Source: a virus
Taxonomy: Duplodnaviria > Heunggongvirae > Uroviricota > Caudoviricetes
Strand: one strand, 5' to 3'
IMG/VR virus record: IMGVR_UViG_3300002854_000123
Coordinates: 1 to 10,257 of that record
Length of the DNA: 10,257 bases
In this document: in pieces, positions 699-6,413 of the stretch
Position numbering within the stretch: position 1 is the first letter of the stretch
Layout of the letters: the number at the start of each line of letters is the position of its first letter
The notes under the pieces: generated by a model
Seen by the model: only the letters and a program-made list of their open reading frames with translations
Databases searched by the model: none
Told to the model about the DNA's origin: nothing
Translations under genes and position numbers: made by a program

Positions 699-1664
699 AT
701 GCCGACAGGATTATTGATAGAACTGAATGACGGCGGAAAGCGTATGGAGATAACGGCGGGCCTGAGATGTCCGTCGTATGGGGCCAGTTTTGACAGTGGT
801 TACCAGAAAGCAAAATACGCGGATATTGCCGGTTATGTTTCAGGGGCGCAGGTGCTGTTTATCCCGCACGCTACGGCTTACCTTGATTCAGGTCTGCTTC
901 ATAAGATGAACTCGGTCACCATATCGGGGGGCCGCGTCACGCAGAACTCAACGATGAAAGACAACCGCATCAGCGAACGGGATAGCACTTACACGTTTCC
1001 GGGAAGCCTATGGCAGATATTCCCGACAGGTCAGCGAAGTGGTGTGGGCTTGCTCATCAGCAACAGTACAGACTTCACCTCGATAACCAATGCCACACAG
1101 TCAGGCCAGTGTATCTGGAAGGGTACCGTTAATGTTCCGACCGGGGGTTGGGCGGTTCCCACGATAGCAGGTTATGACAAGTCGAAATATATCGTTTTTG
1201 GACGCTGCAACAGCGGCAATACGATTGACTTCGACGGAAATACGGTCAGGTTCTTCAGCCCTCCGTCCACGAATGATGACGCCCCCGCAACAGGCACGAT
1301 AGACATCGTTATCTTCGCCAGCGGTGTAGCGCCGCAGCCTGGTACCGGCCTCAATATTTTCAATGCTGCCGGTGCCTGTACGTTTTCAACCACAAAACGG
1401 CCATTCGTATATCTGAACCAACTCTGGAGCCCTTCGACAAGCGCCGTGAGCATCGGTAGCGGCTATGTTCCGCTGGGGAGATTTGGGCTGATGGTTCATA
1501 TGGTCAATGGCATGTACGTGTATCGGATGTTCGGGATAAAAATACAGAACGGGAACGCTTCAGTTCAGGGAGGGAAATATCTTGGTCGCGAGCAGTATGC
1601 CATTTTCGGTAATAACACGATAACGCCGCTCAGCCTTCCGGTTCTGCCTGATATGTACGTCTGA
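699..1664 (+). CDS. Hypothetical phage tail-associated protein (321 aa), translationally coupled to the upstream J-like gene
   Basis: ATG at 699 lies 1 nt after the upstream TAA (TAAAATG). Long ORF in the same coding-strand block as the tail genes. An alternative in-frame ATG at 639 would overlap the upstream gene. No family recognised. Confidence 0.6.
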   Translation: MPTGLLIELNDGGKRMEITAGLRCPSYGASFDSGYQKAKYADIAGYVSGAQVLFIPHATAYLDSGLLHKMNSVTISGGRVTQNSTMKDNRISERDSTYTFPGSLWQIFPTGQRSGVGLLISNSTDFTSITNATQSGQCIWKGTVNVPTGGWAVPTIAGYDKSKYIVFGRCNSGNTIDFDGNTVRFFSPPSTNDDAPATGTIDIVIFASGVAPQPGTGLNIFNAAGACTFSTTKRPFVYLNQLWSPSTSAVSIGSGYVPLGRFGLMVHMVNGMYVYRMFGIKIQNGNASVQGGKYLGREQYAIFGNNTITPLSLPVLPDMYV

Positions 1665-1686
1665 ATTAACTGTATATTCAAATCAA

Positions 1687-1708
1687 CCTCGCTTCGGCGG
1701 GGTTTTTT
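1687..1708 (+). terminator. Rho-independent terminator (6-bp GC-rich stem, UUCG tetraloop, T6 tail)
   Basis: cctcgc-ttcg-gcgggg followed by tttttt, directly after the stop of the 699-1664 gene and 17 nt before the tail-fibre start codon. Confidence 0.6.
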
Positions 1709-1724
1709 ATTGCCTGGAGAAAAT

Positions 1725-3011
1725 ATGCTTTATAACACCGGCACCATCGCCGTTAATGGAAATACAGCAACCGGCACCGGCACGAACTGGACGGCACCCG
1801 CCAGCCAGGTTCGCGCTGGCCAGACGATTATCGTGATGTCTAACCCGGTGCAGCTGTTCCAGATTTCATCCGTGAACAGCGCGACGTCTTTGACGGTTAC
1901 GCCAGCTGCTTCCCCGGCGCTGAGCGGCCAGAAGTATGGAATCCTGGTGTCAGACAATATCTCAGTCGACGGCCTGGCACAGGCCATGTCGCAGCTCATC
2001 AAAGAGTATGACGAGAACATCGGCGCGTGGGAGACGTTCGCCACTACCTCAGCAAACCAGAGCATCACGGTTACCATCAATGGCACCCCTGTTACGATCC
2101 CCGGCATCGGTAAACTGGCGCAGAAAGGGAGTAACGGTGCGCTGGCTGTTGCTGACGGCGGAACCGGAGCAACAAAGGCAGAAGACGCTCGCACAAACCT
2201 CGGTTTAGGAAGTAGTGCGTTGAAGAATTTGCAAAGCACAACCGAGGATAAAACGACTGGGGCTGTTTTGCAGGTCGGCTCCTTCGGTTTGGGTGCAGAG
2301 GCACCAGTTATTCCTGCCAATGATGCTAACCAAATTACTGGCTATAACGGTTTTGTTTCAGGTGCTGGGGCTCCTGGAACGAACTGGGTAAACGTATACG
2401 GCCCTATGCTCGTTATGAGGAGAATCAGTGCCGTTGCTCAGGTCCAGGTAAACGCTGTGGGTGGACTGGCATCACGCTACGGTCTGGTTACGGACATGAC
2501 CGTTAACAATGGCGGGGCGTGGTGCGTTCACTGGCATGACAGAAACACAACTGTGGACTCAAGCGGGTTCATAAAACGGGCTTCGCCTATCGTTAAGTTG
2601 TTTTCTGATGGAGGCTACGAAACAAATGATGAATCTGAGGGGTGCACAGTTCGCCGTATCGAAACAGGCCAATATCTTATAGAAGGATGTCATGGCCTGA
2701 ATGCAGAGGCTATTTGGGGCGGGGTTGATGGTGGTTTTGAGATCCCCTCAGACCGTAATAAACAGCCGCTGGTATGGCTGGATTATGAGGTAAATGCTGA
2801 TGGTTCGGTGTTGGTTAAAACGTATCATCGAGCACACCCCGAAGCGCCGACGTTCGCCAGGAATGAACTGCAGGGTATCAACGACGGCGACCCAATCGAC
2901 ATTCCCCGCGATCAGTTTGTGTCCGTGCGTGTCGAAATGCCTGGCGATTCTGTATACAACCAGAAACTCAGAGCCGTAGAGCTAATCCTTGCTACTGATG
3001 AAGGTGAATAA
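1725..3011 (+). CDS. Phage tail-fibre protein: N-terminal virion-attachment domain (about 1725-2201) fused to C-terminal cassette 1 (2202-3011)
   Basis: ATG at 1725 is preceded by GGAGA at 1715-1719 (the ORF-track start at 1710 is TTG). The N-terminus MLYNTGTIAVNGNTATGTGTNW is tail-fibre-like. Crossover site A is internal, at the NLGLGSSA hinge. The TAA stop at 3009-3011 lies inside crossover site B. Confidence 0.8.
   Translation: MLYNTGTIAVNGNTATGTGTNWTAPASQVRAGQTIIVMSNPVQLFQISSVNSATSLTVTPAASPALSGQKYGILVSDNISVDGLAQAMSQLIKEYDENIGAWETFATTSANQSITVTINGTPVTIPGIGKLAQKGSNGALAVADGGTGATKAEDARTNLGLGSSALKNLQSTTEDKTTGAVLQVGSFGLGAEAPVIPANDANQITGYNGFVSGAGAPGTNWVNVYGPMLVMRRISAVAQVQVNAVGGLASRYGLVTDMTVNNGGAWCVHWHDRNTTVDSSGFIKRASPIVKLFSDGGYETNDESEGCTVRRIETGQYLIEGCHGLNAEAIWGGVDGGFEIPSDRNKQPLVWLDYEVNADGSVLVKTYHRAHPEAPTFARNELQGINDGDPIDIPRDQFVSVRVEMPGDSVYNQKLRAVELILATDEGE
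2188..2213. other. Crossover site A (gix/hix/mix-like 26-bp site) inside the tail-fibre gene
   Basis: ctcgcacAAACC-TC-GGTTTaggaagt: inverted AAACC/GGTTT half-site cores around a central TC (2200-2201), as in Gin/Hin-family sites. Same orientation as site B, inverted relative to site C. Encodes N-L-G-L-G-S. Confidence 0.6.
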
Positions 3012-3028
3012 AGGTCGGTTTAGGAGAT
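3003..3028. other. Crossover site B (gix/mix-like), overlapping the tail-fibre stop codon
   Basis: ggtgaataaagg-TC-GGTTTaggagat. The right half-site matches sites A and C closely; the left half is degenerate. Central TC at 3015-3016. Confidence 0.65.
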
Positions 3029-3850
3029 AGCGTCACAGCCAACTTTGGAAGCCTCGAAATTGGAGCGAAGAAAGCCTCTTCTGCAAGCTTCGTTGATTTC
3101 CATTTTCTTGGCACTAACGACTATGACGCGCGAATCCTGTGCGGTGGTAATTCCAGTGGTGCCATGGGGAAAGGAGACTTTACATTTTACGCAGGGAGAT
3201 ACATTTTTATCGGCGATAGCTTTGAATTTCGTAATCCAATTACCTGCCAGAACAGCATAAGCGCATCAGCTAAAATCGCGACCAGTGCTGATATGGAATG
3301 CAAAACTAAAATTGCTGTTTTGGCCCCAGCTGACAATCAGAATGCCCACGTATGGTTCTATGGCACAGGTGGGGCATCCAGGGGGGTTATTTATTCCGGG
3401 CAGACAGGAATCATTCAGATCCGTCCTGACAACAATGATAATGGAGGCTCCAACGGATACTCTTTTGCGTTTGGGGCTGATGGTAAGTTCACCTGCGTCA
3501 CGATGAATCAGACTTCGGATGAACGAGTTAAATTCGACAAAGAACCCGTCAGTAACGCTCTGGAGAAGATCTGTTCACTGACGGGGTATACGTTTGGCAT
3601 TCAACTGACTGAATCGGAATCAATACGCAGCGCAGGTATCATCGCCCAGGAACTGGAGCGTGTTCTTCCTGTCGCGGTAAGTTCAGGCGGTACCGGAACA
3701 ACGCAGAATGGAGAAGAGATTAACGATCTCAAAACCGTGGACTACAGTGCGATGAGCGCCCTGTATGTTGAGGCCATGAAGGAGCTGGCCAACCGGGTAA
3801 AAAGCATTAAGAGTGAGCTTGCTGAACTCAAAGCCCGATCCGCGATATAG
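3017..3850 (+). CDS. Promoterless tail-fibre C-terminal cassette 2 with C-terminal intramolecular chaperone (peptidase S74-type) domain
   Basis: Frame is open from site B to TAG at 3848-3850, with no canonical start before the ATG at 3164. The cassette begins GLGDS in the same phase as site A. Contains SDERVK (from 3515) and GIIAQELERVLP, typical S74 autoproteolytic chaperone motifs, and ends in a coiled-coil-like tail. Confidence 0.65.
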   Translation, partial: GLGDSVTANFGSLEIGAKKASSASFVDFHFLGTNDYDARILCGGNSSGAMGKGDFTFYAGRYIFIGDSFEFRNPITCQNSISASAKIATSADMECKTKIAVLAPADNQNAHVWFYGTGGASRGVIYSGQTGIIQIRPDNNDNGGSNGYSFAFGADGKFTCVTMNQTSDERVKFDKEPVSNALEKICSLTGYTFGIQLTESESIRSAGIIAQELERVLPVAVSSGGTGTTQNGEEINDLKTVDYSAMSALYVEAMKELANRVKSIKSELAELKARSAI

Positions 3851-4064
3851 TGTATTAGCTCAGACTTGACCTGACAGTTTGATCTGGCAACAGACTATCA
3901 AAGCTGACCGTCTGCTTTGAGCGAGGAGAGGTAGTTCACTTTCGGGAAAACTCATCCACGTGCGATAGTCTCTAAATGAGAACAGGTCGTTAAGCTGGAT
4001 ACTTACACCCACCTCGGCGAAAGGCTGTACACTGATAACACTTATAGATGATTCTGAGTATTTT

Positions 4065-4847
4065 ATGATTTTATACAAATACATAGACAAAGCTTCATTA
4101 GGTCGGTTCTTCAAAGATGGATACATCTCCATAAAATTTACCCCGCACAGTGAGTTTAATGATCCTTTCGAAAGTTATGGATATGCACTTGATGATGCGT
4201 CAATTGAATCATTAACGATGAGGCATGAGATCAATAAAAACCTTGCCTGCTTATGTCTTTCAAAAAATCCACTCAACGTCTTGATGTGGTCACACTATGC
4301 TGAAAAGCATCAAGGATTTGTTGTAGCAATCGACATTGAGAAAGCAGGATACGATGATGAAGCAAAATGCCTGATTACAGCTCAGAAAGGTGATATTGAT
4401 TATTTAGGAAATAGAATAAAAAGCAAACTAAAAATCACGCAGGAAAATATCTATGATACTGATGTGATTAGTAAGCTATTGCTTACTAAATCATTGCATT
4501 GGAAATATGAAGAAGAAATCAGAATAATAAAAAAGACAGATTCATTACAGCAACAAGGTGCTGTTTTAATTGACAAAATATATGATCTTAATTCTATAGT
4601 CAGTATCTATATCGGGATTAACAACAGAGGAGTTGATGAAATCATTAGAAACAACAATGCATTAGAGACATTGATTTTAAACAAGACAGTACAGTTATAT
4701 CAGTGTGAATTTAAGAAAAGTACATGGGATCTCGACATAGAAGCTTATGAATACACCAAATACCCGCATGATATGCAGAGAATGGATGTATTTGATTCTG
4801 TCGCGAAGGTGTTGAGAGCAATGGAACGTAACCATATAGGCGATTGA
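4065..4847 (+). CDS. AT-rich cargo gene inside the invertible segment; DUF2971-like protein (260 aa), function unknown
   Basis: Clean ORF, visibly much more AT-rich than the flanking tail-fibre DNA. Motifs LYKY near the N-terminus, FNDPFE, LMWSHYAEKHQGF and WKYEEEIR match my recollection of the DUF2971 family; this needs an HMM check. Confidence 0.65.
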   Translation: MILYKYIDKASLGRFFKDGYISIKFTPHSEFNDPFESYGYALDDASIESLTMRHEINKNLACLCLSKNPLNVLMWSHYAEKHQGFVVAIDIEKAGYDDEAKCLITAQKGDIDYLGNRIKSKLKITQENIYDTDVISKLLLTKSLHWKYEEEIRIIKKTDSLQQQGAVLIDKIYDLNSIVSIYIGINNRGVDEIIRNNNALETLILNKTVQLYQCEFKKSTWDLDIEAYEYTKYPHDMQRMDVFDSVAKVLRAMERNHIGD

Positions 4848-4878
4848 GATTATTGATGGCGATTATCGTGTCAGAAAT

Positions 4879-4902
4879 GTCCGCTCCTGGCACAGAGCGG
4901 AC
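4879..4902 (-). terminator. Hairpin (8-bp stem), possible terminator between convergent cassette 3 and the DUF2971-like gene
   Basis: gtccgctc-ctggcaca-gagcggac; on the minus strand it is followed by a weak U-rich tract (auuucu). Lies about 70 nt downstream of the cassette 3 stop. Confidence 0.3.
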
Positions 4903-4969
4903 TGTCAGCTTAAGTTAAGCCCTGAGCAGTAACAGTGCCAAATCAAGTTTGAGCTAATACAGATATAGC

Positions 4970-5641
4970 TTACTGAGCTGAAACCTTAGTCGCAGCCTGT
5001 TCTTCCAAAACCCTGACGCGGATTGCCAGCGCTTTGATTGCTGCTAGCGCATCGAGCAAAATAGGGGTCTGATCAAGATGCAGTATGCCGCCTATTTCTT
5101 TCACGTATTCGGGATCAATCGTTTCAATCTGCTGTGATATTACCCCGCGTCGTGGGGTCTGCGTTTCATCGTCCTTAAAAGTGAAGTGTTTGAATTCCAT
5201 CCGGCAGATATTTAACAACGCCGCTTCCAGATCGAGGTCATCGCCAATGTTTTTCATTGTTCTGTCAGATACCGCTGAAGTCATGATCTCCTTCCACGGG
5301 CTCCAGGCATTGGTGTTGTAACCCCTGAAAAAAAATCGTCCAGCATCAGTTTGGCTTGGATATGGCAAACAAAACTGCGTTAGCGCTACGTCGGCAATAC
5401 GAACATAATTTTGAACATACCCATACCAACTTGAGATAGGTCCTGAGGTTGATTTCGACATATCCAAAAGTAAACGATAAGTTCCTGGCTCTGTAAGACT
5501 GTTGAAGTTTGTCCCATCAGGAGCAACTGCCGAGTCTGTTTTAAATACCCTGGCATCACCAGTAGGTAATCCAAATGCTCCCACTTGCATGACGTTCCCG
5601 GCTGCCGTTCCGACGTCCTTCGTAGCGCTACTTCCCAAACC
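4970..5641 (-). CDS. Promoterless tail-fibre C-terminal cassette 3 (inverted orientation) with C-terminal S74-type intramolecular chaperone domain
   Basis: Minus-strand frame is open from site C (stop at 5648-5650 just outside) to TAA at 4970-4972. Begins (N)VGLGSSATKDVG, homologous to the hinge NLGLGSSALK of the expressed gene. Contains SDRTMKNI and GVISQQIETIDPEYV motifs and a helical C-terminal tail. Confidence 0.65.
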   Translation of the reverse strand, partial: GLGSSATKDVGTAAGNVMQVGAFGLPTGDARVFKTDSAVAPDGTNFNSLTEPGTYRLLLDMSKSTSGPISSWYGYVQNYVRIADVALTQFCLPYPSQTDAGRFFFRGYNTNAWSPWKEIMTSAVSDRTMKNIGDDLDLEAALLNICRMEFKHFTFKDDETQTPRRGVISQQIETIDPEYVKEIGGILHLDQTPILLDALAAIKALAIRVRVLEEQAATKVSAQ

Positions 5642-5655
5642 GACGTTTTATAGAT
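5630..5655. other. Crossover site C (gix/mix-like), inverted relative to A and B, immediately upstream of the invertase gene
   Basis: Top strand acttcccAAACC-GA-CGTTTTatagat; reverse complement atctatAAAACG-TC-GGTTTgggaagt aligns with sites A and B. Central dinucleotide at 5642-5643. Confidence 0.65.
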
Positions 5656-5720
5656 TGCCACGAGGCGGCCTGGCCGATAACTTCATCTGATTTTTTTGCA
5701 GAATTTATTGGGTGAAAAAT

Positions 5721-6278
5721 ATGCAAATTGGCTATGTAAGGGTGTCAACAAATGACCAAAATACGGATCTTCAGCGGCAAGCACTCGAACGCGTAGGATG
5801 TGAACAGATTTTCGAAGAAAAAATGAGCGGAACAGTGGCGAACCGGCCAGCGTTGAAAAAGCTTCTTAAGGCGCTGAATGAGGGGGATACGCTGGTAGTC
5901 TGGAAGCTGGATCGCCTTGGGCGCAGCATGCGGAATCTGGTGCTGCTGGTGGACGAACTCCGGCAGCGCGGCATCCACTTTAAGAGCCTCACTGACAGCA
6001 TCGACACATCAAGTCCGATGGGACGCTTCATCTTTCATATTATGTCAGCCCTGGCGGAAATGGAGAGGGAGTTGATTGTGGAACGCACCCGGGCAGGCCT
6101 GGCTGCAGCTCGTGAGAAAGGGAGAATCGGCGGCAGGCGTCCGAAGCTCACCCTGGAGCAATGGGCTCAGGCAGGGCGGTTGATAGCGAACGGCGTAGAC
6201 AGGAAGCAGGTAGCGATAATTTATGACGTTGCAGTGTGTACGCTTTATAAAAAGTTTCCTGCAGGGATAAAGCTGTAA
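5721..6278 (+). CDS. Serine recombinase, DNA invertase of the Gin/Hin/Pin/Cin/Min family (185 aa)
   Basis: MQIGYVRVSTNDQ (catalytic Ser in VRVST), LVVWKLDRLGRS, SLTDSIDTSSPMGRF, MERELIVERT and a C-terminal HTH (KQVAIIYDVAVCTLYKK) are hallmark invertase motifs. ATG at 5721 is preferred over the GTG at 5712 used by the ORF track. Confidence 0.9.
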   Translation: MQIGYVRVSTNDQNTDLQRQALERVGCEQIFEEKMSGTVANRPALKKLLKALNEGDTLVVWKLDRLGRSMRNLVLLVDELRQRGIHFKSLTDSIDTSSPMGRFIFHIMSALAEMERELIVERTRAGLAAAREKGRIGGRRPKLTLEQWAQAGRLIANGVDRKQVAIIYDVAVCTLYKKFPAGIKL

Positions 6279-6384
6279 TGGTAAGGCAACTGAAGTATGC
6301 TCGACTGCCTTACTATGCTTAAAGCGCAACTTGGCGAACGGTCGGGAAATCTGAAACAAGTGGTTTACAGGCTCAGCAAACAAA

Positions 6385-6413
6385 GAACCCGGCTTTGCCG
6401 GGTTCTGTTTGTT
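6385..6413. terminator. Bidirectional rho-independent terminator between the invertase (+) and the minus-strand small-gene operon
   Basis: gaacccggc-ttt-gccgggttc (9-bp stem) followed by tgtttgtt on the plus strand and a T-rich tract on the minus strand. Confidence 0.5.

What the first reader, a model, noticed from the sequence alone, without database searches (positions are those of the whole stretch)
3003..3028. Stop codon of the expressed tail-fibre gene is built into crossover site B
At first sight the tail-fibre ORF (frame 0) ends at TAA 3009-3011 and the downstream cassette ORF opens in another frame at 3008 with no start codon, which looks like a frameshifted pseudogene. It is not: the TAA sits in the left arm of site B, 4 nt before the crossover dinucleotide. 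Cassette 1 is thus terminated precisely at the site, and cassettes 2 and 3 are silent until recombined onto site A. The frame offset arises because the distance between the A and B cores is 815 bp, not a multiple of 3. The same ATAAA-(N)-TC-GGTTT arrangement occurs at site C, where ATAAA is not coding for tail fibre. That argues the conservation is site-driven, not protein-driven.
Basis: seen in the sequence. Interest (0 to 1): 0.6.

Follow-up and report, generated by a model that had tools for sequence, protein, structure and literature searches.

The report
Stop codon inside tail-fibre inversion site
The stop codon of a prophage tail-fibre gene really does lie inside a DNA-inversion site, but this is the normal packing of a known kind of Gin-invertase "cassette shuffling" system that lets a phage switch receptor-binding tips.

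Summary
The 428-aa tail-fibre ORF (1725-3011) ends at TAA 3009-3011, positions -6 to -4 of a 26-bp crossover site B (3003-3028). B matches site A (2188-2213) and the inverted site C (5630-5655); shuffles give no such matches by chance. A serine invertase about 75% identical to Mu Gin lies at 5721-6278. Two start-less cassettes, 3014-3850 (+) and 5644-4970 (-), begin in frame at B and C.

The system is a three-site Gin-family multiple-inversion switch with four configurations and three isoforms of 428, 382 and 436 aa. Cassette 2 needs two inversions, because A and B are direct repeats.

The stop-in-site layout is conserved. In 80 loci chosen only by invertase similarity, 18 of 21 internal sites hold the upstream cassette's TAA at -6, three have TGA at -16, and none has a stop beyond the core. 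A p15B-Min-like region has stops at -8 in every internal site.

Relatives exist as exact inversion isomers, one pair requiring an internal site. A three-cassette Gin system was shown experimentally in Enterobacter phage FRphi.

"Site-driven" is only partly right: only the two A's of TAA are site-constrained, and ATAAA at C is one base out of register. Verdict: new member of a known kind, low interest.

The parts
1725..2201 (+). Constant 5' part of the tail-fibre gene (159 codons), up to the core of site A
   Evidence: ORF list. PHROG 1591 tail fiber. All in-silico recombinants share this part.
2188..2213 (+). Crossover site A: CTCGCACAAACC|TC|GGTTTAGGAAGT, core at 2200-2201
   Evidence: The inner 5+2+5 bp are identical to Mu gix.
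2202..3011 (+). Cassette 1 (the expressed C-terminus, Phage_tail_C_2 domain), including its TAA stop
   Evidence: Pfam PF25670, E 5e-60. Homologous cassettes end the same way in E. coli and IMG/VR loci.
3003..3028 (+). Crossover site B: GGTGAATAAAGG|TC|GGTTTAGGAGAT, core at 3015-3016, same orientation as A
   Evidence: (D4, I4). An identical left arm is joined to many different right-hand cassettes in relatives.
3009..3011 (+). TAA stop of cassette 1, at -6..-4 of site B
   Evidence: TAA at -6 in 18 of 21 internal sites of an invertase-selected sample.
3005..3007 (+). TGA in the cassette-2 frame, also inside B's left arm. It closes the silent frame 3 codons before the core.
   Evidence: Read from the sequence. 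The cassette-2 frame is open only from 3008.
3014..3850 (+). Cassette 2: silent, start-less, 278 codons, with a Peptidase_S74 intramolecular chaperone domain
   Evidence: Pfam PF13884. PHROG tail-fibre hits. In-frame fusion of 436 aa after two inversions.
3851..4969 (.). Spacer between the two convergent cassettes. It carries a DUF2971 / PDC-S31 gene (4065-4847, +) and is flanked by imperfect inverted repeats.
   Evidence: (I2, I3). The spacer is absent in E. coli relatives and different in L195.
4970..5644 (-). Cassette 3: silent, start-less, 224 codons plus stop, with a Peptidase_S74 domain
   Evidence: In-frame fusion of 382 aa after AxC inversion.
5630..5655 (-). Crossover site C (reverse complement ATCTATAAAACG|TC|GGTTTGGGAAGT), core GA at 5642-5643 on the + strand, inverted relative to A and B
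   Evidence: (I1, I4). The same left arm lies next to the invertase in about 70 related loci.
5721..6278 (+). Gin-family serine DNA invertase (185 aa)
   Evidence: Pfam Resolvase + HTH_7. E 1.5e-87 over residues 1-181 to Mu Gin, PDB 3UJ3, with the catalytic Ser9 present.

Best explanation
The region 1725-6278 is a three-site, Gin-family multiple-inversion switch for the C-terminal, receptor-binding part of a lambdoid prophage side tail fibre.

Layout. Each of the three cassettes begins at a 26-bp site, in a fixed frame relative to the 2-bp core TC. Only the cassette sitting at site A is fused to the constant 5' part and translated. Cassette 1 and cassette 2 lie head to tail. The left half-site of B belongs physically to the 3' end of cassette 1 and is never exchanged. 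It doubles as cassette 1's last codons, Gly-Glu-stop (GGT GAA TAA).

Why the stop sits there. A stop on the left of the core is needed so that cassette 1 keeps one C-terminus whatever is recombined in downstream. Two of the three stop bases are the invariant A's (-5, -4) of the half-site. That is why the stop is always TAA when it sits there.

How it switches. The invertase inverts AxC and BxC in the configuration found, and AxB once B has been flipped. This gives four configurations and three isoforms of 428, 382 and 436 aa. Cassette 2 reaches A only after two inversions.

Shown versus inferred. Shown: the anatomy, the in-frame fusions, conservation of the layout, and real inversion isomers in relatives. 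Inferred: activity of this particular copy, and dependence on Fis and an enhancer.
For: - Sites and significance: (3 hits, 0 in 200 shuffles).
- Invertase is a Gin orthologue.
- All junctions are in frame and there are four configurations.
- E. coli CX15 and CX07 carry the same prophage as exact AxC inversion isomers, with 1 mismatch in 6089 bp.
- IMG/VR contigs L027 and L064 become 99.96% identical over 5369 bp only after in-silico BxC plus AxC. This requires an internal site whose inner sequence, TAAAGG-TC-GGTTTAGGA, is the same as in the window's B.
- The same B left arm is joined to many different cassettes, and the [cassette 1-B] module occurs in both orientations (12 versus 9 loci).
- Unbiased sample: 18 of 21 internal sites have TAA at -6, three have TGA at -16, none has a stop past the core.
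- The p15B-Min-like region has a stop at -8 in all 7 internal sites.
- In Enterobacter phage FRphi, three tail-fibre C-termini are shuffled by gin and locked by a gin deletion. Isoforms occur at about 50:25:25 (PMC13418256). That is the 2:1:1 expected from the four-state model.
Against: - Only one configuration of this exact locus was seen. L012 is 100% identical and in the same state, so activity here is inferred from relatives.
- B's left half-site departs from the palindrome next to the core (GG instead of CC), so it may be a weaker site.
- The direct evidence for the GGTGAATAAAGG type of B (L046 versus L047) comes from a contig whose end looks chimeric.
- The Fis enhancer was not demonstrated. 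There is only slightly raised third-position identity to gin in the first 120 nt.
- I could not verify that FRphi has the same site layout as this window.
Confidence: 0.85

Rival explanations
1. The overlap of stop and site has no site-level cause. B's left arm is simply the inherited 3' end of one widespread cassette family, and the TAA position is conserved by common descent and compaction only.
For: - 23 of 36 distinct internal sites belong to one cassette family ending ...GE*.
- Position -6 differs among the left arms of A, B and C (C, T, A).
- Other families stop at -7, -8, -16 and -19.
Against: - At -6..-4 the stop is always TAA, never TGA or TAG, in all distinct sequences seen. Where the stop lies outside the invariant AAA, TGA also occurs (one of the Min-like internal sites; 3 of 3 at -16).
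- Unrelated cassette tails (…QFDITE*, …TAEDNE*, …HVDVGE*) all end GAATAAAGG.
- The TAAAGG is retained in CX15 and EC23HZZ201, where a premature stop 19 codons upstream makes it non-coding. That nonsense change may be recent, however.
Confidence: 0.2
2. Site B is a dead relic and cassette 2 is a decaying pseudogene. Only the AxC inversion works, as in a two-site G-segment.
For: - About 30 of 80 related loci are plain two-site systems.
- B's left arm is the poorest match to the palindrome.
- Some relatives carry damaged cassettes (L086, L017, CX15).
Against: - Cassette 2 keeps 278 open codons with no start codon and an intact Peptidase_S74 domain.
- B's core and right arm are perfect.
- The L027/L064 isomers require an internal site with the same inner sequence.
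- Different cassettes sit at B in near-identical backgrounds.
- FRphi expresses all three isoforms.
Confidence: 0.07
3. Cassette 1 and cassette 2 are one gene joined by programmed -1 frameshifting or readthrough at 3005-3011.
For: The two frames overlap, and cassette 2 has no start codon.
Against: - TGA (3005-3007) closes the cassette-2 frame only one base before the TAA of the cassette-1 frame.
- No slippery heptamer precedes the overlap.
- The same left arm is followed by many unrelated cassettes, and by inverted ones, in relatives.
- Cassette 2 starts with the same G-L-G motif that follows site A, as expected for a swap-in module.
Confidence: 0.02

Closest known systems
Min multiple-inversion system of plasmid p15B (Sandmeier, Iida, Arber 1990-92), examined here through its 99%-identical copy in pMCR_SCKP-LL83 (PMC5786510)
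   Same: - Serine invertase next to the region.
- More than two crossover sites.
- Start-less 3' cassettes in tandem, each beginning in frame at a site.
- The stop of every upstream cassette lies inside the left arm of the next site.
   Different: - Min has 9 sites with core TT, short (~145-170 aa) collar-type cassettes, separate Tfa chaperone genes and a P1-type myovirus backbone.
- Its stops sit at -8, not -6.
- The window has 3 sites with core TC, cassettes of 224-278 aa (two with built-in S74 chaperones) and a lambdoid siphovirus-type tail module.
G segment / Gin of phage Mu (also Cin of P1, Pin of e14, Hin)
   Same: - The invertase is about 75% identical to Gin.
- Same 2-bp core TC/GA and same inner half-site AAACC.
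- The site lies inside the fibre gene at the constant/variable junction.
   Different: Mu has two sites only. Its cassettes converge, so no cassette ends at a site and no stop lies in a site. Chaperone genes U and U' are separate.
Tail-fibre 'shufflon' of Enterobacter phage FRphi (Walker, Richard et al., Nat Microbiol 2026, PMC13418256)
   Same: - Lambdoid Enterobacter prophage with one N-terminal part, three alternative C-termini and a downstream gin.
- Shuffling was shown by long reads and abolished by a gin deletion.
- The 50:25:25 isoform ratio fits the four-state model derived here.
   Different: - It is a different prophage: there is no fliC-tldR module in the window.
- Its site sequences and stop positions are not described in the text I could read, so identity of the layout is unverified.
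Escherichia phage LLS 'Fin' invertase locus (PQ299149) and mEpX1-type lambdoid phages
   Same: The constant part of the fibre (about 91% nt identity), the A and C sites and the invertase are homologous.
   Different: These are two-site systems. LLS equals the three-site locus L086 minus exactly the A-core-to-B-core module.
R64-type shufflon (Rci / sfx)
   Same: It works alike: multiple inversions swap start-less C-terminal cassettes onto one constant gene.
   Different: Rci is a tyrosine recombinase with asymmetric sfx sites, so this is not the same family. Here the enzyme is a serine invertase.

Membership tests
Gin/Hin/Cin/Pin serine DNA-invertase inversion systems | Small serine recombinase: N-terminal catalytic domain with the active-site Ser, and a C-terminal HTH | tested here: met
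   Pfam Resolvase (E 1e-50) plus HTH_7. Full-length match to Mu Gin, PDB 3UJ3, E 1.5e-87, with Ser9 in the VSTNDQ motif conserved.
Gin/Hin/Cin/Pin serine DNA-invertase inversion systems | 26-bp sites: two imperfect 12-bp inverted half-sites around a 2-bp core, with identical cores in partner sites | tested here: met
   A, B and C all read AAA(C/G)(C/G)-TC-GGTTT(A/G)GGA. There were 0 chance matches in 200 shuffles. The inner bases equal Mu gix.
Gin/Hin/Cin/Pin serine DNA-invertase inversion systems | Inversion between inverted sites actually occurs, with exact breakpoints at the sites | tested here: met
   Met in relatives, not in this copy. CX15/CX07 are exact AxC isomers. L027/L064 are exact after BxC plus AxC. 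The only other copy of the window's own locus (L012) is in the same state.
Gin/Hin/Cin/Pin serine DNA-invertase inversion systems | Fis-dependent recombinational enhancer in cis (in Mu, inside the 5' part of gin) | tested here: inconclusive
   The 5' 120 nt of the invertase gene align with gin. Third-position identity there is 0.50-0.55, against 0.15-0.50 (mostly 0.15-0.40) further on. This is only a hint; no Fis-site test was possible.
Multiple-inversion systems of the p15B Min type | More than two crossover sites, including internal ones oriented like the gene-internal site | tested here: met
   There are three sites. B is direct relative to A and inverted relative to C.
Multiple-inversion systems of the p15B Min type | Several start-less 3' cassettes, each fusing in frame to one constant 5' part | tested here: met
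   There is no start codon in frame before 3164. In-silico fusions give 428, 382 and 436 aa.
Multiple-inversion systems of the p15B Min type | Tandem cassettes end in the non-exchanged arm of the next site | tested here: met
   In the window, TAA lies at -6 of B. In the Min-like region, TAA or TGA lies at -8 of all 7 internal sites.
R64-type shufflon (Rci/sfx) | Tyrosine recombinase Rci and asymmetric sfx sites | tested here: not met
   The recombinase is a serine resolvase/invertase. The sites are near-palindromic gix-like sites.
Frameshifted pseudogene or programmed frameshift | A single ancestral ORF broken by an indel, or a slippery site joining two frames | tested here: not met
   The break coincides with a crossover site. 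Downstream sequences differ between relatives from the core onward. A TGA closes the second frame 1 nt before the TAA.

The most novel reading that the evidence does not exclude
The left half-site of internal sites may be a selected dual-use element. It would encode the cassette's terminal Gly-Glu-stop, and by departing from the palindrome next to the core (GG, where A has CC and C has CG) it would set a hierarchy of inversion rates. That hierarchy would bias which fibre tip a phage population displays. The in-arm stops in two frames (TGA and TAA) would also insulate the silent cassette from any translation.
Probability: 0.2. Interest if true: 0.4.

Novelty: new member of a known kind. Interest (0 to 1): 0.2.

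Why it matters
It mainly matters for annotation and for phage engineering.

Annotation. Start-less cassettes after such sites are routinely called 'tail fiber domain-containing protein', 'hypothetical' or 'partial' genes from an internal ATG. Assemblies freeze one of four states.

Engineering. The rule is simple. The cassette starts one base before the core, and the upstream cassette stops within about 6-19 nt to the left of the core, using the half-site's A-tract. This gives an easy way to delimit receptor-binding modules and to predict every isoform of a prophage. It also explains the 2:1:1 isoform ratio reported for a related Enterobacter phage.

It does not reveal a new mechanism.

Tried and rejected
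Only 2 of 120 loci extend into the site, so it gave no taxonomic picture.
- The original p15B papers (PMC53420, PMC329034, PMC206102) are not held. I therefore could not check whether the stop-in-site feature was stated in print. I read it from a 99%-identical Min region instead.
- L046 versus L047 looked like an isomer pair for the exact B type of the window. However, L047 starts 91 nt before a site and carries the invertase flank at both ends, so it may be a chimeric assembly. I use it only as weak support.
- Accession numbers from the window's invertase cluster were not found in the FRphi paper's Gin table, so a direct link to that phage is unproven.
- The promoter and terminator scan of 1600-6400 was at background level and shows nothing in front of cassette 2. 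This is a weak test.
- The E. coli genome and phage collections hold no close copy of the whole locus; the best place covers 32%. The host is most likely Enterobacter.

Full report
**1. What is in the window**

The window is the right end of a lambdoid-type prophage. It is integrated at tRNA-Pro(GGG) (8293-8369, minus strand) next to yejM. The host is an enterobacterium. Its yejM is 78% identical to that of E. coli at the nucleotide level, and the 90% cluster of the invertase is dominated by Enterobacter.

The gene order from the left is:
- the end of a tail-tip J-like protein, then a DUF6453 protein;
- a 428-aa tail-fibre ORF at 1725-3011 (PHROG 1591; C-terminal Pfam Phage_tail_C_2);
- an open frame without a start codon at 3008-3850 (Peptidase_S74);
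- a DUF2971 gene at 4065-4847;
- a second start-less frame on the minus strand at 5644-4970 (Peptidase_S74);
- a 185-aa serine recombinase at 5721-6278.

The recombinase aligns over residues 1-181 with Mu Gin (PDB 3UJ3, E 1.5e-87), and the catalytic serine is present.

**2. The observation**

Three 26-bp sites share the pattern AAA(C/G)(C/G)-TC-GGTTT(A/G)GGA:

| Site | Coordinates | Sequence |
|---|---|---|
| A | 2188-2213 | CTCGCACAAACC\|TC\|GGTTTAGGAAGT |
| B | 3003-3028 | GGTGAATAAAGG\|TC\|GGTTTAGGAGAT |
| C | 5630-5655 (reverse complement) | ATCTATAAAACG\|TC\|GGTTTGGGAAGT |

With one mismatch allowed, the 16-mer pattern occurs only at these three places and in none of 200 shuffles. The repeat finder links them independently (D4, I1, I4).

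The inner bases and the core are those of Mu gix, TTATCCAAAACC|TC|GGTTTACAGGAA.

TAA 3009-3011 is at -6..-4 of B. The downstream frame is closed by TGA 3005-3007, so it opens at 3008, and it has no ATG, GTG or TTG before 3164. The A-B core distance is 815 bp.

The one inaccuracy concerns ATAAA. At C it lies at -8..-4, and at B at -7..-3.

**3. How the switch is built**

Cassettes start one base before the core, with the codon xTC followed by GGT TTx GGx, giving the G-L-G motif. I performed the recombinations in silico, with these results:

| Configuration | Fibre |
|---|---|
| As found | 428 aa, ending ...ATDEGE |
| After AxC | 382 aa (cassette 3) |
| After BxC | 428 aa, unchanged; cassettes 2 and 3 swap places |
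| After BxC then AxC (equivalently AxC then AxB) | 436 aa (cassette 2) |

There are thus four configurations and three isoforms. Cassette 1 is expressed in two of the four configurations.

A and B are direct repeats, so cassette 2 cannot reach A in a single inversion. B's left arm stays attached to cassette 1 in every state, which is why it can carry cassette 1's last codons and stop.

The silent frames are also closed inside the left arms. TGA sits at -10..-8 of B, and TAA at -7..-5 of C (plus-strand 5648-5650, read on the minus strand). This is read directly.

**4. Is the layout conserved?**

- *E. coli relatives.* MB06232 has the same ...GATGAAGGTGAATAAAGG|TC|GGTTTAGG, but a different cassette follows. 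CX15 and EC23HZZ201 have GGTGACTAAAGG. Their cassette 1 carries a premature TAA 19 codons upstream, yet the in-site TAA is retained.
- *Pattern scan of IMG/VR.* The pattern fixed -5..-1 but left -6 free. It returned about 50 invertase-linked loci with GGTGAATAAAGG, with the upstream cassette's stop at -6.
- *Unbiased sample.* I took 80 loci selected only by an invertase at least 94% identical. About 30 are two-site systems. Twenty loci carry 21 internal sites: 18 have TAA at -6, three have TGA at -16, and none has a stop beyond the core.
- *Other lineages.* Stops lie at -7 (ATATTTAAAAGG) and -19.
- *Min-like region.* In the Min-type region of pMCR_SCKP-LL83 (reported as 99% identical to p15B min, PMC5786510), all seven internal sites read GGCAT(A/G)AAAACG|TT|GGTTT. 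The upstream cassette's TAA or TGA is at -8.

So the feature is a general property of tandem cassettes in serine-invertase multiple-inversion systems, not a peculiarity of this window.

**5. Are internal sites used?**

- *CX15 versus CX07.* These E. coli strains carry the same prophage. CX07 equals CX15 with the segment between the A and C cores inverted, with one difference in 6089 bp.
- *L027 versus L064.* These IMG/VR contigs are 99.96% identical over 5369 bp only after in-silico BxC plus AxC. AxC alone leaves a 1.6-kb block inverted. Their internal site has the same inner sequence, TAAAGG-TC-GGTTTAGGA, as the window's B.
- *Orientation of the module.* The [cassette 1-B] module occurs in both orientations at similar frequency, 12 versus 9 loci.
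- *Phage LLS.* This two-site phage equals the three-site locus L086 minus exactly the 787 bp from the A core to the B core.
- *Experiment in FRphi.* Enterobacter phage FRphi has three alternative fibre C-termini, shuffled by gin and frozen by a gin deletion. Isoforms occur at about 50:25:25 in both chromosomal and virion DNA (PMC13418256). A four-state A/B/C system at equilibrium predicts exactly 2:1:1. This link is my inference, because I could not inspect FRphi's sites.

**6. Site-driven or protein-driven?**

It is both.
- In register, -6 is C, T and A in the left arms of A, B and C, and T or C in the right arms. The T of TAA is therefore free.
- The two A's at -5 and -4 belong to the invariant AAA.
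- Consistently, stops at -6..-4 are always TAA. Stops placed outside the AAA (at -8 or -16) are sometimes TGA.
- Unrelated cassette tails (…DEGE, …DAGE, …QFDITE, …TAEDNE, …HVDVGE) all end GAA-TAA-AGG.
- Against this, most -6 cases descend from one cassette family (23 of 36 distinct sites).
- The offset varies between families, which means all three frame relations occur.

What is functionally required is only that the stop precede the core.

**7. Alternatives**

- *Dead site or pseudogene.* This is unlikely. Cassette 2 has 278 open codons without a start and an intact S74 domain, and B has a perfect core and right arm.
- *Frameshifting or readthrough.* This is excluded in practice. The second frame is closed by TGA one base before the TAA, and there is no slippery sequence.

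**8. Comparison and verdict**

The locus is a member of the Gin/Hin/Cin/Pin invertase family by enzyme and by sites. It works like the Min multiple-inversion system and like the recently characterised FRphi 'shufflon'. It is not an Rci/sfx shufflon.

It differs from Mu in having a third, internal site. It differs from Min in site number, core dinucleotide, cassette type (two carry built-in S74 chaperones and there are no tfa genes) and phage backbone.

But the arrangement is the ordinary design of a known kind of system. Rating: new member of a known kind, low interest.

Noticed in passing
window 3851-4969 (gene 4065-4847, +): A 260-aa DUF2971 protein matches the PADLOC candidate defence family PDC-S31 (E 2e-26). 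It sits inside the invertible segment, between the two convergent silent cassettes. The spacer is AT-rich and flanked by imperfect inverted repeats (3851-76/4936-61 and 3901-31/4881-4911). The gene's orientation relative to the late operon flips with AxC and BxC inversions.
   Followed up: partly
L195 4330-6157 (IMG/VR relative); L326 4041-4826 (E. coli RM14723): The same inter-cassette spot in a related prophage holds a different PDC-S31/DUF2971 gene plus another ORF, on the opposite strand. E. coli relatives have no spacer at all. A 78%-identical DUF2971 gene in E. coli lies between ogr and a tail gene of a P2-like prophage. This suggests a mobile 'moron' that settles in prophage cargo hotspots.
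   Followed up: partly
L004 2007-2008 (E. coli CX07; also CX05 and CX21) versus L005 (CX15, CX04); L194 4532: In the inverted isomer, the core of site A reads TT instead of TC. This is the only difference in 6 kb. L194 also has TT at A with TC at B and C. A core mismatch should block productive exchange in Gin-type systems, so these copies may be locked in one fibre state.
   Followed up: no
L001 (phage LLS) versus L086 5654-6440: The two-site phage LLS equals the three-site locus minus exactly the segment from the A core to the B core (787 bp). The cassette removed is already broken in L086. Either A and B recombined as direct repeats (a deletion), or a cassette-plus-site module was gained.
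   Followed up: partly
L005 about 2738-2740 and L002 (E. coli CX15, EC23HZZ201): Cassette 1 carries a TAC-to-TAA nonsense change 19 codons before the in-site stop. RefSeq annotates the resulting pieces as 'phage tail protein', or as 'hypothetical protein, incomplete'.
   Followed up: yes
L047 1-103 and 2430-3060: This IMG/VR contig has the invertase-side flank of site C at both ends of the invertible segment. It is probably an assembly of mixed isomers. It shows that such loci mislead assemblers.
   Followed up: partly
window 6548-8188: Between the invertase and the tRNA-Pro attachment end lie four small genes: an unknown 125-aa gene (PHROG 16322), a DinI-like gene (7265-7528, minus strand), an unknown ORF of about 79-85 aa (7611/7629-7868, +) and a short HumD/UmuD-like ORF (7868-8188). 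They are typical prophage-end accessory genes and were not examined further.
   Followed up: no
window 5721-5840: Third-codon-position identity to Mu gin is higher in the first 120 nt (0.50-0.55) than over most of the rest of the gene (mostly 0.15-0.40, one bin at 0.50). In Mu this part of gin carries the Fis-dependent enhancer, so the same may hold here.
   Followed up: partly
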